64,000 nucleotides of DNA from Escherichia phage C6. The notes under the pieces are model-generated. The model saw nothing but the letters and a program-made list of their open reading frames with translations. It was not told where the DNA came from and ran no database searches. The stretch lies in sequence record MW679410.1, one strand, 5' to 3'. Each line of letters opens with the position of its first letter. The first letter of the stretch is position 1. Shown here piece by piece: positions 1 through 4,879 of this stretch. The translations under genes and the position numbers were made by a program.

Positions 1-158
1 TAATGGGCTTCAAAACTCGTTACGGTATCGGTATCAACCCGTTTGCTGACCCGTCTGCACAGGCTCCTACCAAACGTATTCAGAGCGGTATGCCTGACAT
101 CGTTAACAGCCTTGGTCTGAATGGTTACTTCCGTCGCGTATATGTTAAAGGTATCTAA
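1..158 (+). CDS. 23: major capsid protein gp23, C-terminal fragment (5' end outside window)
   Basis: In-frame translation ...GFKTRYGIGINPFADPSAQAPTKRIQSGMPDIVNSLGLNGYFRRVYVKGI* resembles the gp23 C-terminus; lies directly upstream of gene 24 as in T4. Confidence 0.8.
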   Translation, partial: MGFKTRYGIGINPFADPSAQAPTKRIQSGMPDIVNSLGLNGYFRRVYVKGI

Positions 159-174
159 GATATAACCTTATTAT

Positions 175-200
175 GGGAGACTTCGGTCTCCCATTCTTGT
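175..200 (+). terminator. intrinsic terminator hairpin gggagaCTTCGgtctccc followed by T-rich tract
   Basis: Perfect 7-bp stem with UUCG loop immediately after gene 23 stop. Confidence 0.6.
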
Positions 201-207
201 TTCTGTA

Positions 208-474
208 CTATGCAATCTTAACTCGACGATTGATGATATCACGGAAGTCAATACGATTTTCTTGGATTTTCAGCCAGTTACCAGATTTGTCTTTGGTATG
301 GGTAGAGTATTCACCGTTCCACCAGAAGTCAGTTTCATAAGCTAGGGCTTCGTATTTCTTAACCAATGCATTAACTGCATTACCGTTAGGATTGGTACCA
401 AATTTTTCTACCAGAGCTTTGATGTCTTTGTCAAGGTTAGAAAGTGTAGTACGGATAAAGTTTAATTTGTTCAT
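208..474 (-). CDS. hypothetical protein, antisense to the capsid gene block
   Basis: Track ORF 208..489; likely start at internal ATG (MNKLNF...) preceded by GAGGAG; own early-type promoter upstream. Confidence 0.5.
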   Translation of the reverse strand: MNKLNFIRTTLSNLDKDIKALVEKFGTNPNGNAVNALVKKYEALAYETDFWWNGEYSTHTKDKSGNWLKIQENRIDFRDIINRRVKIA

Positions 475-494
475 TTTTAATCTCCTCATGTTTT

Positions 495-533
495 GATAGG
501 TCTATAGTAACACGACGCTTTTTGTGTGTAAAC
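495..533 (-). promoter_or_regulatory. early-type promoter (GTTTAC -35, TAnTAT -10, AGACCTATCAA box)
   Basis: Minus-strand reading GTTTAC-N18-TACTAT-AGACCTATC upstream of ORF 208..474; member of a motif family recurring in this window. Confidence 0.5.
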
Positions 534-539
534 CACTTT

Positions 540-547
540 TATAAATA
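540..547 (+). promoter_or_regulatory. late promoter TATAAATA for gene 24
   Basis: Exact T4 late-promoter octamer about 30 nt upstream of gene 24 ATG. Confidence 0.6.
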
Positions 548-576: not shown

Positions 577-1857
577 ATGGCTAAAATTAACGACCTTTTA
601 AAAGAGTCGACCACTACTTCGAGTTCTTCGATTGGTCGTCCAAATTTAGTAGCTTTAACCAGAGCTACGACCAAACTGATTTATACCGACCTTGTAGCTC
701 AGCAGCGTACTAACCAACCTTTGGCTGCTCTATATGGTATCAAATATCTTACAGAAAAAAACGAATTATCTTTCCAGACAGGTGCTACTTATTCTGGTGC
801 AGTATCCGCTAAAGACCGTGCCTCTATCCCAGTTTTCACTGCAGGTGCTGTTTACGCTAAAGATGATTTGTTCCAATTTGAAAACGTAGTTTATAAAGCT
901 TTGGTAGCAACACCATTTGCAGGTGCTACTGGCGATGAATACGAACAACTTCAAGAAGCTATTGTTAAGTTGACTATTCGTATTATGTCCGAAGCCGCAC
1001 TGACTGAGCGTTTTGAAGGCCTCCAGGATGTAGATGTTTCTGAAGCCAAATTCGTCGTTAATAAATGGAACGCTCCAGTTAAATCCCGTAAGTTGAAGAG
1101 TACTGTTACTGTAGAACTGGCTCAAGACCTCGAAGCAAATGGTTTCGATGCCCCTAATTTCTTGGAAGACCTCCTGGCTACTGAAATGGCTGATGAAATC
1201 AACAAAGATATTCTTCAGTCCCTGGTTACGGTTTCCAAGCGTTATAAAGTTGAAGGTTTGTGTGATGACGGCTTAATTGACCTGAGTTATGCTAACTCAC
1301 CGGAAGCTTCTCGCAAGCTTTATGAAATAGTTTGTGAAATGGTTTCTCATATCCAGCGCGCAACCTCTTATACGGCAACTTATGTAGTAGCGAGTACTCG
1401 CGTAGCCGCTGTTCTGGCTGGTTCTGGCTGGTTAAGACATACCCCACAGAACGACAAATATCTTTCTGCAAATGCATACGGATTCCTGGAAAATGGTTTG
1501 CCTGTGTATTGTGATACCAACACGCCAATTGATTATGTTACTGTAGGTGTTAAAGAGGAATTTGGTGGGAAAGAAGCAGTAGGTTCTTTGTTCTATGCGC
1601 CGTATACAGAAGGCCTTGATTTGGCTGACCCTGAACATGTGGGTACATTTAAAGTGGTCGTTGACCCTGAAAGCCTGCAACCATCTATTGCATTAATGGT
1701 TCGTTATGCACTGGCTGCTAACCCTTATACGGTTACTTCCGATGATAAACAAGCCCGTATTATTGATGCGACTAATATGGATTTGATGGCGGGACGTTCT
1801 GATATGTCCGTATTGCTTGGTGTGAAACTTCCTAAAGTTTTGACTGAATTAAACTAA
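577..1857 (+). CDS. 24: capsid vertex protein gp24
   Basis: 426 aa; N-terminus MAKINDLLKESTTT..IGRPNLVALTRATTKLIY and C-terminal half closely match T4 gp24. Confidence 0.95.
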   Translation: MAKINDLLKESTTTSSSSIGRPNLVALTRATTKLIYTDLVAQQRTNQPLAALYGIKYLTEKNELSFQTGATYSGAVSAKDRASIPVFTAGAVYAKDDLFQFENVVYKALVATPFAGATGDEYEQLQEAIVKLTIRIMSEAALTERFEGLQDVDVSEAKFVVNKWNAPVKSRKLKSTVTVELAQDLEANGFDAPNFLEDLLATEMADEINKDILQSLVTVSKRYKVEGLCDDGLIDLSYANSPEASRKLYEIVCEMVSHIQRATSYTATYVVASTRVAAVLAGSGWLRHTPQNDKYLSANAYGFLENGLPVYCDTNTPIDYVTVGVKEEFGGKEAVGSLFYAPYTEGLDLADPEHVGTFKVVVDPESLQPSIALMVRYALAANPYTVTSDDKQARIIDATNMDLMAGRSDMSVLLGVKLPKVLTELN

Positions 1858-1889: not shown

Positions 1890-2894
1890 TTACGACACTA
1901 ATTCAATCCATACTGCTCGTAGGGTATCTTTTACACACTCAACGAGCTGCTTTTTAACTTCAACAGGATTTTCTGCATCGGTTAATTCTAATTCTTCACG
2001 GGCGGCTTCTTCTAAGATATCTTGGACTGTCAAGCCCATTACCTTTCCGAAATCCTTTTTAGATACTTCGCCAATCTTACTGATGACATTATTAATGCGG
2101 TTAACAGTCACATAATCGGTGAATTGCCACATCAAATCCATATCGTCTTGGGATAAAACTACCACAGTCTTGATAGGCTTATCGGACTTTTTCTTCTCGC
2201 TGAATTTAGAGTTCTTACATTTAATCGCTACGCGATTTCCGTTTGGAAGCCAGGTAGGAATATCAGGTTTAAGTACAAAGCCTTCGGCTGTAAATACTTT
2301 ACCTTCTACCTTAGGAATAAAGTCTGTCGAGTTTGCAATAGTTAGGCCAGCGTTATCCACTGCAAAATTATAATCAGGAATAACTGAATCAAAGTCGTTA
2401 GGTAATTTAATAAGGTCTTCAAAGCTACCGGTGGCCAGACATGGAGCTACCTTAAACTTATGGATAATACAGAAGGCTTCCATCAATGTATCGGTTAGAA
2501 CAGATTCTGAACCATCTTCCTTAGTAACTCGGATATCGAACACATAAAAGTCTTTATCGCCGTAGTCCACATTCTTCTGGATACCTGTCCCAGCGAATTC
2601 GCCATAAATCTGGTACGACTGATAATTAATCGATTCAATTAGATGTTGAACAGATTTAATAGAATCAGCATAGTTCTTAAGTACAATTTCATAACCATAG
2701 AAATCTTCAGCAGGGAGGATAGGGCCAGTGCGCTTGGCGCATGTGACTGCGTCACGTTCTATGATTAAACTAAAGTTGGTTCCATGAATCTTCTCACGTG
2801 CCACCCATTCACCACTGGTCAAACCATTAGTACGGAGTTTTTCGATAAACTTACTGTTGTAGTGGTTTTCGAGACTGCTATATTTCTTGAACAT
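1890..2894 (-). CDS. rnlB: RNA ligase 2
   Basis: 334 aa; [20 protein letters not shown]...[10 protein letters not shown] (ligase KxHG-type motif), near-identical to T4 Rnl2. Confidence 0.95.
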
Positions 2895-3008: not shown

Positions 3009-3218
3009 TTACTTTGAACTAGAACGCGCTTTGCGCCGAACCTTGTTGTTCAATCTTTTACGATAAACAACCTTTTCTTTCGCTTTAAATTTGGCCTTGG
3101 CTTGTTCTACATCAACCCATGCTTTGGCCATGTCCTTAGCGGTCCCGCCCATTTTTTTAGCAATTTCTATAAAATTCAACCCAGATTCGTGTAAAAAATG
3201 TACTTTAACCTTATCCAT
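3009..3218 (-). CDS. small basic protein with putative helix-turn-helix
   Basis: 69 aa; GLNFIEIAKKMGGTAKDMAKAWV resembles an HTH, lysine/arginine-rich tail; occupies the 24.2/24.3 position. Confidence 0.5.
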   Translation of the reverse strand: MDKVKVHFLHESGLNFIEIAKKMGGTAKDMAKAWVDVEQAKAKFKAKEKVVYRKRLNNKVRRKARSSSK

Positions 3219-4871: not shown

Positions 4872-4879
4872 TATAAATA
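4872..4879 (+). promoter_or_regulatory. late promoter TATAAATA for uvsW
   Basis: Exact octamer about 30 nt upstream of uvsW ATG. Confidence 0.6.

What the first reader, a model, noticed from the sequence alone, without database searches (positions are those of the whole stretch)
208..540. Antisense early gene with its own promoter between major capsid gene 23 and vertex gene 24
An 88-aa ORF on the opposite strand sits between two late structural genes. It has a GAGGAG SD and an early-type promoter whose -10 region lies about 25 nt upstream of the start. T4 carries the homing endonuclease segD at this position; this ORF is unrelated and too small to be one, so it looks like a different insertion at the same hot spot.
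Basis: partly seen in the sequence, partly recalled or inferred. Interest (0 to 1): 0.5.

Follow-up and report, generated by a model that had tools for sequence, protein, structure and literature searches.

The report
Conserved small early gene beside capsid genes
The 88-codon reverse-strand ORF between the capsid genes 23 and 24 of this T4-like phage is a real, selected, early-promoter-driven accessory gene of unknown function that is already annotated as a hypothetical protein in over a hundred related phages, and it is the usual occupant of this gap, not an alternative to the homing-endonuclease gene segD.

Summary
An 88-aa ORF lies on the minus strand at 208-474, with a GAGGAG Shine-Dalgarno 7 nt upstream and a T4-type early promoter (GTTTACA-N-TGtTACTAT, 533-504), between gene 23 (ends 158) and gene 24 (starts 577). 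The window is a Dhakavirus, 98% identical to phage AnYang.

- **Coding:** dN/dS is about 0.09, and variable sites by codon position are 9/6/32.
- **Family:** PHROG 6003 (E 2e-49), 100% identical to annotated hypothetical proteins of AnYang, MX01 and JS10.
- **Synteny:** it holds the same antisense position in Dhakavirus, Gaprivervirus, JS09-like Mosigvirus and two metagenomic T4-likes. It is a frameshifted pseudogene in RB69 and is absent from T2 and T4.
- **Relation to segD:** it is not an alternative insertion. In 38 records a SegD homologue sits 4 nt downstream of it, and T4 segD sits alone behind the positionally homologous promoter.
- **Fold and function:** a confident AF2 model (pLDDT 93) shows a basic, soluble alpha-alpha-beta-beta-alpha protein with no informative structural or sequence relative, so function is unknown. 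My best guess is a dispensable early host-takeover or anti-defence binder.

This is an ordinary, already catalogued gene. The side observations on segD are modestly interesting.

The parts
3..158 (+). 3' end of gene 23 (major capsid protein)
   Evidence: ORF; 98% identical AnYang record annotated as major head protein.
173..194 (.). GC-rich hairpin (ATGGGAGACTTCGGTCTCCCAT). On the + strand it is followed by a T-rich tract and is the gene 23 terminator. On the - strand it lies 13 nt after the ORF stop but has no U-tract.
   Evidence: terminator scan; folds on both strands, z about -3.5 to -3.8; the same hairpin is conserved in TU01 and RB69.
208..474 (-). 88-aa ORF (stop codon included), PHROG 6003, about 10.3 kDa, pI 9.5, soluble
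208..222 (-). Last 4-5 codons of the ORF. This is the stretch that is replaced or recoded in relatives that carry segD downstream, so it marks the segD cassette boundary and a candidate target region.
   Evidence: JS98 and IME341 differ within the ORF only at nt 254-266, and both segD-positive alleles share GTCAAAGCAGCGTAA.
482..487 (-). Shine-Dalgarno GAGGAG, 7 nt from the ATG
   Evidence: conserved in Dhakavirus and TU01.
504..512 (-). Extended -10 element TGtTACTAT of the early promoter
527..533 (-). -35 element GTTTACA of the early promoter (T4 early-promoter type)
   Evidence: TTTACA is invariant in all 12 aligned phages, T4 included, while the spacer varies.
540..547 (+). Late promoter TATAAATA of gene 24, back-to-back with the early promoter
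   Evidence: conserved in all aligned phages and in T2.
577..1857 (+). Gene 24 (capsid vertex protein)

Best explanation
This is a real protein-coding early gene, a member of PHROG 6003. Shown from sequence: it encodes a 10-kDa, basic, cysteine-free, soluble protein with a confidently predicted alpha-alpha-beta-hairpin-alpha fold, and it carries its own T4-type sigma-70 early promoter that sits back-to-back with the late promoter of gene 24. Shown by comparison: it is the conserved but dispensable resident of the 23/24 gap in Dhakavirus, Gaprivervirus and part of Mosigvirus. segD is a separate mobile gene that inserts at its 3' end and is probably read from the same promoter. In T4, segD stands alone behind the homologous promoter. 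Inferred: host RNA polymerase transcribes the gene in the first minutes of infection. The transcript is translated from an open GAGGAG leader, and may end at or read through the gene 23 hairpin as anti-late RNA. Guessed: like other small non-essential T-even early proteins, the product acts stoichiometrically by binding a host or phage macromolecule, as a host-takeover or anti-defence accessory. The conserved basic charge fits a nucleic-acid or acidic-protein partner. The biochemical function is unknown.
For: **Coding.** dN/dS is 0.03-0.13 among seven Dhakavirus alleles at dS 0.2-0.7. Only the annotated frame has a low omega (0.09) together with no stop codons, and variable sites by codon position are 9/6/32.

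**Family.** PHROG 6003 matches at E 2e-49 over the full length. tblastn finds 130 phage records. About 20 clusters, all 87-93 aa, are found among 5.8e9 proteins, and an HMM scan of 1.84e9 representatives finds nothing else credible.

**Synteny.**

**Promoter.** The site belongs to a class of 15 sites, all on the minus strand, against 0.15 expected. The hexamers are conserved across genera while the spacer varies. T4 segD, behind the positionally homologous promoter, is scored 'early RNA' and its protein is detected in PMC9697503.

**Dispensability.** The gene is frameshifted in RB69. The gap is empty (83 bp) in T2 and most Tequatroviruses. The gene is absent from T4.

**Relation to segD.** The downstream endonuclease is 57% identical to T4 SegD, E 2e-86. 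38 records have ORF plus segD. The recoded ORF 3' end is shared by segD-positive alleles, and the ORF stays 88 aa long.

**Fold and properties.** AF2 gives pLDDT 93 and pTM 0.78. pI is about 9.5 in four divergent members, with no hydrophobic segment. In rV5-like phages the homologue sits in arrays of small same-strand ORFs.
Against: There are no transcript or protein data for this phage or any Dhakavirus. No functional clue came from any library:
- Pfam and NCBIfam gave only sub-threshold noise.
- The PDB sequence search gave E >= 0.14.
- BFVD returned only the protein's own family.
- Neighbours in rV5-like phages are uninformative.

The host-takeover or anti-defence role is therefore an argument by analogy, not a result. 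The hairpin after the ORF has no U-tract on the minus strand, so the transcript's 3' end is unknown.
Confidence: 0.8

Rival explanations
1. The ORF is part of the segD mobile cassette, for example cargo or a helper of the endonuclease, and not an independent resident gene. It would therefore be an insertion like segD.
For: The ORF sits immediately upstream of a segD homologue in 38 records, apparently in one transcription unit. T4 segD uses the positionally homologous promoter. The T2-type gap lacks ORF, segD and early promoter together.
Against: About 90 records in three genera have the ORF without segD. T4-type phages have segD without the ORF. Homologues in rV5-like phages have no endonuclease nearby. 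Between the segD-negative and segD-positive alleles JS98 and IME341, only the last 13 nt of the ORF change, so the cassette boundary lies at the ORF's 3' end and the ORF is outside it. ORF divergence between genera tracks that of gene 24.
Confidence: 0.07
2. The functional product is RNA. The early promoter would exist to make an antisense (anti-late) transcript against gene 23 or gene 24 mRNA, and the ORF would be incidental.
For: The transcript is antisense to the late strand. The hairpin after the ORF lacks a U-tract on the minus strand, so read-through into anti-gene-23 RNA is plausible. Anti-late early RNA is established T4 knowledge.
Against: There is strong purifying selection on the protein frame, with omega 0.09 and a 9/6/32 codon-position pattern. 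The protein family is conserved down to 28-41% identity with a confident common fold. The SD and start codon are conserved. There is no Rfam match. An antisense role could be additional but cannot be the only one.
Confidence: 0.05
3. It is a head-assembly or capsid accessory factor, as its position inside the head-gene cluster might suggest.
For: Location between genes 23 and 24 only.
Against: It lies on the opposite strand behind an early, not late, promoter. It is absent from T4 and T2, which build the same capsid, and is a pseudogene in RB69. Homologues in rV5-like phages lie among small early-type ORFs, not structural genes.
Confidence: 0.03
4. It is a chance ORF or an annotation artefact.
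For: It is short and has no Pfam family.
Against: All of the selection, conservation, promoter and fold evidence above.
Confidence: 0.01

Closest known systems
Annotated hypothetical proteins of Dhakavirus and Gaprivervirus: AnYang ORF119 (QAU03650.1), JS10 EpJS10_0170, JS98 EpJS98_gp173, SP18gp189, VR7ORF190c. All are PHROG 6003.
   Same: This is the same gene at the same position and orientation. The protein is 100% identical to those of AnYang, MX01 and JS10, 92-99% identical within Dhakavirus and about 65% identical to Gaprivervirus.
   Different: Nothing of substance. Some records, such as AnYang, start the CDS at the upstream ATG (93 aa), whereas the conserved start gives 88 aa.
The T4 segD transcription unit (GIY-YIG free-standing homing endonuclease gene between genes 23 and 24)
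   Same: Same gap, same antisense orientation, and a positionally homologous early-type promoter that abuts the gene 24 late promoter. T4 segD RNA is scored as early.
   Different: The encoded protein is unrelated. SegD is 223 aa with a GIY-YIG domain, while this ORF is 88 aa with no nuclease motif. In 38 Dhakavirus records both genes are present in tandem.
RB69ORF188c and RB69ORF189c
   Same: Same locus and same gene family. Their DNA aligns almost base for base with the intact TU01 (JS09-like Mosigvirus) orthologue.
   Different: In RB69 the gene is broken by two frameshifts into 41- and 29-codon fragments, so it is a pseudogene.
Small non-essential early genes of T-even phages in general, such as host-takeover and anti-defence accessory proteins (from established T4 knowledge)
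   Same: Small size, early sigma-70 promoter with GTTTAC -35 and extended -10, a GGAG-type SD, dispensability, patchy distribution among relatives, and location in a plastic gap of the genome.
   Different: No sequence or fold similarity to any characterised member was found. This is a resemblance of kind, not membership in a family.

Membership tests
PHROG 6003 (phage protein family of unknown function) | Significant full-length match to the family HMM | tested here: met
   E 2.2e-49, residues 1-88 on profile positions 1-88 of 90.
GIY-YIG homing endonucleases (SegD-like) | GIY-YIG catalytic domain, or sequence similarity to SegD | tested here: not met
   No GIY-YIG Pfam hit. BLASTP against T4 SegD gives E 0.38. 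By contrast, the 219-aa neighbour in vB_EcoM_005 is 57% identical to SegD and touches the SegE_GIY-YIG model.
GIY-YIG homing endonucleases (SegD-like) | Size sufficient for a nuclease domain plus a DNA-binding domain (about 200 aa or more) | tested here: not met
   88 aa.
T4-type early (sigma-70) promoters | -35 GTTTAC(A/T), about 17-nt spacing and an extended -10 TGnTAnnnT, on the early-gene strand | tested here: met
   GTTTACA-N-TGtTACTAT at 533-504. It is one of 15 such sites, all on the minus strand, against 0.15 expected. The hexamers are conserved across genera.
T4-type early (sigma-70) promoters | Transcription by unmodified host RNA polymerase in the first minutes of infection | not testable with these tools
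   There is only indirect support. T4 segD, behind the homologous promoter, is classed as early RNA in PMC9697503.
Pfam DUF5380 | Score above the Pfam gathering threshold (29 bits) | tested here: not met
   12.7 bits, E 0.12. Four of 11 family members hit weakly, with a best E of 0.075.
Any characterised protein fold or family (PDB, NCBIfam, BFVD) | Significant sequence or structure match | tested here: not met

The most novel reading that the evidence does not exclude
The family is a previously uncharacterised fold of early phage effector, either host-takeover or anti-defence. In addition, the 3' end of this gene is the natural homing target of SegD-type endonucleases. That would explain the recoded ORF tail carried by all segD-positive Dhakavirus alleles. 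It might also explain why T4 SegD was reported not to home into T2, whose gap lacks this gene (title of Sokolov et al. 2018, cited in PMC10448857; the paper itself was not read).
Probability: 0.25. Interest if true: 0.45.

Novelty: already known. Interest (0 to 1): 0.22.

Why it matters
The gene itself matters little. It is one more conserved, dispensable, small early gene of unknown function in T4-like phages, and it is already in GenBank and PHROGs.

Three by-products may interest T4 specialists:
- The 23/24 gap exists in four states: empty, ORF only, ORF plus segD, and segD only. This gives a natural series for studying how a free-standing homing endonuclease invades and then displaces a resident gene.
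- T4 segD has a good early-type promoter that is homologous in position to the ORF's promoter, although a 2010 review stated that none could be found.
- The confidently predicted fold has no structural relative, so it is a reasonable candidate for accessory-gene or anti-defence screens.

Tried and rejected
**Function searches that gave nothing useful**
- afdb50 was not available.
- PHROG scans of neighbours in an rV5-like contig.
- A literature search for the locus tags and the PHROG id found no paper.
- The Sokolov 2018 SegD paper is not held.

**Leads that were rejected**
- The tblastn rows that stopped at residue 72 first suggested that segD truncates the ORF. Direct translation showed the ORF is intact at 88 aa in those phages, so the truncation is a BLAST artefact.
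- A second promoter-like site, TTGCTA-16-TATAAT at 577-550, scores 10/12. Its -10 is not conserved in JS98-type relatives, and it lacks the GTTTAC and TG signature, so I treat it as chance.
- I considered cassette swapping between conserved flanks. ORF nucleotide divergence between genera (0.58-0.66 identity) is close to that of the gene 24 5' end (0.64-0.81), so vertical descent is sufficient.
- P0010 (160 aa) is a chimeric assembly, and the long repetitive hits are low-complexity noise.
- Rfam has no family here.
- The T4 GenBank record carries no promoter features that could be checked.

Full report
**1. What is in the sequence**

The window starts in the last 52 codons of gene 23 (3..158, +). 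A GC-rich hairpin with a T-tract follows at 173..194. Next comes a minus-strand ORF at 208..474, then a 102-nt spacer, then gene 24 (577..1857, +) and rnlB (1890..2894, -). By megablast the region is 98.3% identical to Escherichia phage AnYang, a Dhakavirus, whose record annotates major head protein, hypothetical protein, head vertex protein and RNA ligase 2 in that order.

The ORF is 88 aa counted from ATG 474. GAGGAG lies at 487..482, 7 nt upstream, in a leader with no predicted structure. An in-frame ATG at 489 would add five residues. It sits at about the predicted transcription start, has no SD, and is absent from the SP18 and TU01 orthologues. The 93-aa annotation in some records is therefore probably too long.

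**2. The promoter**

On the minus strand, GTTTACA (533..527), a spacer, then TGtTACTAT (512..504) match the T4 early-promoter form: -35 GTTTAC(A/T) with an extended -10.

A census of the whole window with the pattern GTTTAC[AT]-N13-15-TGnTAnnnT gave 15 sites. All 15 are on the minus strand and none on the plus strand, against 0.15 per shuffled window. The site at 533 is one of them. It therefore belongs to this phage's early-promoter class and does not look like a chance hexamer pair.

In an alignment of 12 phages the TTTACA and -10 elements are conserved while the spacer varies freely. That is the pattern expected of a working promoter. The late promoter TATAAATA of gene 24 (540..547, +) lies 6 nt from the -35, so the two promoters are back-to-back.

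Actual early transcription is inferred. It has not been shown for this phage.

**3. It is a selected protein-coding gene**

Nei-Gojobori dN/dS among seven Dhakavirus alleles is 0.03-0.13 at dS 0.2-0.7. Of the six frames, only the annotated one combines a low omega (median 0.09) with no stop codons. Variable sites fall 9/6/32 at codon positions 1/2/3.

**4. Distribution**

- **Family.** The protein matches PHROG 6003 (unknown function) end to end at E 2e-49 and has no Pfam family.
- **Phage records.** tblastn finds it in 130 records. Identity is 100% in AnYang, MX01 and JS10, 92-99% in other Dhakaviruses, about 65% in Gapriverviruses (SP18, VR7, VR20...), about 35% in JS09-like Mosigviruses (TU01, HX01...), and 41% in an rV5-like Acinetobacter phage.
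- **Synteny.** In all the T4-like genera it occupies the same place on the same (antisense) strand between genes 23 and 24. The same holds in two metagenomic T4-like contigs that have duplicated gene 24.
- **Other contexts.** In the rV5-like phages it lies in an array of small same-strand ORFs.
- **Family size.** A profile search of 5.8e9 proteins found about 20 clusters, all 87-93 aa and all from phage contexts. An HMM scan of 1.84e9 representatives added nothing credible.
- **Loss.** In RB69 the gene is broken by two frameshifts and is annotated as RB69ORF188c and 189c. T2, most Tequatroviruses and Klebsiella JD18-like phages have an empty 83-bp gap holding only the terminator hairpin and the late promoter. 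The gene is therefore dispensable and patchily distributed.
- **Descent.** Its nucleotide divergence between genera is similar to that of the adjacent gene 24 5' end, so vertical descent at this site is enough to explain the pattern.

**5. Relation to segD**

T4 has segD (223 aa, GIY-YIG) in this gap on the same strand. The ORF is unrelated to it. The two genes are not alternatives, however.

In vB_EcoM_005, IME08, IME341, ATK47/48, F2, JK45, the LF82 series and others, 38 records in all, a 219-aa protein 57% identical to T4 SegD (E 2e-86) starts 4 nt after the ORF's stop codon. It lies between the ORF and the gene 23 hairpin. The insertion point is directly after the hairpin's ATTCTTGTTTCT on one side and inside the last codons of the ORF on the other.

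JS98 lacks segD and IME341 carries it. Within the ORF these two differ only at nt 254-266. The two segD-positive alleles examined differ from each other at 22 upstream positions yet share the identical recoded tail GTCAAAGCAGCGTAA, which keeps the ORF at 88 aa (…VKAA instead of …VKIA). This is the expected mark of a free-standing homing-endonuclease cassette whose boundary, and possibly whose target, lies at the ORF's 3' end. That the target lies there is an inference.

In T4 the sequence upstream of segD aligns with the ORF's leader. It has the same late promoter, then ATTTACA, 17 nt, TGATATTAT. A 2010 review stated that no segD-specific promoter could be identified and that segD transcripts were probably vanishingly low (PMC2988022). 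The supplementary tables of a 2022 T4 omics study class segD as 'early RNA, middle protein' with measurable protein (PMC9697503). This is indirect experimental support that this promoter position fires early.

The gap therefore exists in four states:

| State of the 23/24 gap | Where found |
|---|---|
| Empty | T2-type phages |
| ORF only | About 90 records, including this window |
| ORF plus segD | 38 records |
| segD only | T4-type phages, 53 records |

**6. The protein**

With an 18-sequence alignment AlphaFold2 gives pLDDT 93 and pTM 0.78. The model has helix 3-25, helix 31-48, a beta-hairpin at 52-61 and 67-71, and helix 77-87. A 6-sequence alignment had given pLDDT 75 with the same topology.

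Residues invariant across 28-95% identity are M1, K3, F6, N30, G31, N32, A45 and Q71, and N35 is nearly invariant. The NGN motif sits in the loop between the two long helices. The protein is about 10.3 kDa. It has a pI of about 9.5 in four divergent members, no cysteines and no hydrophobic segment.

**7. Most likely mechanism**

Shown: this is a selected protein gene with an early-class promoter and an open SD, and it is dispensable.

Inferred: host RNA polymerase transcribes it immediately after infection. Where segD is present it is co-transcribed. Because the hairpin has no U-tract on this strand, some transcripts may continue as anti-late RNA against gene 23.

Guessed, at perhaps 30-40%: the product is a stoichiometric binder of a host or phage macromolecule in the host-takeover or anti-defence class. 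The conserved positive charge would fit a nucleic-acid or acidic partner.

The rivals are each contradicted by specific results listed in the rival section. They are cargo of the segD cassette, a purely RNA-level function, a head-assembly factor, and a chance ORF.

**8. Verdict**

An antisense early gene with its own promoter that is unrelated to segD is supported. 'A different insertion at the same hot spot' is not, because this is the conserved resident gene next to which segD inserts.

The gene is already annotated as a hypothetical protein, identical in several GenBank records, and is catalogued in PHROGs. Novelty is therefore 'already known' and interest is low. The segD promoter, the four-state gap and the recoded ORF tail are modest side observations worth a specialist's glance.

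Noticed in passing
L019 11292-11532 (RB69 NC_004928 109291-109531, minus strand): RB69ORF188c and RB69ORF189c are two fragments of a frameshifted copy of this gene. The DNA aligns almost base for base with the intact orthologue of the JS09-like phage TU01, apart from one +1 and one -1 shift.
   Followed up: yes
L006 5234-5323 (T4 NC_000866 about 107,233-107,322, minus strand): T4 segD is preceded by a strong early-type promoter-like site, ATTTACA-N17-TGATATTAT, next to the gene 24 late promoter. It is homologous in position to the small ORF's promoter. A 2010 review (PMC2988022) says no segD promoter could be found. The T4 omics supplement (PMC9697503) classes segD RNA as early and detects the protein.
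   Followed up: partly
window 208-222 (minus); L007 and L010 2754-2767: Dhakavirus alleles that carry segD share an identical recoded last 13 nt of the small ORF (GTCAAAGCAGCGTAA). JS98 (no segD) and IME341 (segD) differ nowhere else in the ORF. This suggests the segD cassette boundary, and possibly the endonuclease target, lies in the ORF's 3' end.
   Followed up: partly
window 58188, 57864, 41984, 41278 (minus-strand promoter starts): Four of the 15 early-promoter sites share nearly the same spacer, TCTGCTTTAAAC, which contains TGCTTTA, a MotA-box-like motif. They may be overlapping early/middle promoters or recently duplicated promoter cassettes.
   Followed up: no
window 1-64000: All 15 stringent early-promoter matches are on the minus strand. 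TATAAATA late-promoter motifs occur on both strands, including close divergent pairs at 4872(+)/4893(-) and 8511(+)/8514(-).
   Followed up: no
window about 832 (inside gene 24): Megablast identity to the JS10/JS98/Bp7 group (about 86-87%) stops at about nt 832 inside gene 24, whereas AnYang/MX01-type phages match throughout. This is a mosaic breakpoint within the vertex-protein gene. JS10 and two metagenomic relatives (L014, L016) carry two tandem gp24 paralogues, while this window has one.
   Followed up: no
L001 3208-3489 (AnYang QAU03650.1): Several GenBank records start this CDS at the upstream ATG (93 aa). The start conserved across genera, with the SD, gives 88 aa.
   Followed up: yes
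window 3009-3218 (minus), promoter-like site 3277-3249: A 69-aa ORF matching Pfam DUF2774 (E 5e-30) lies downstream of rnlB and has its own GTTTACA...TGtTAAGAT early-type promoter. It is another small early gene embedded among head genes.
   Followed up: no
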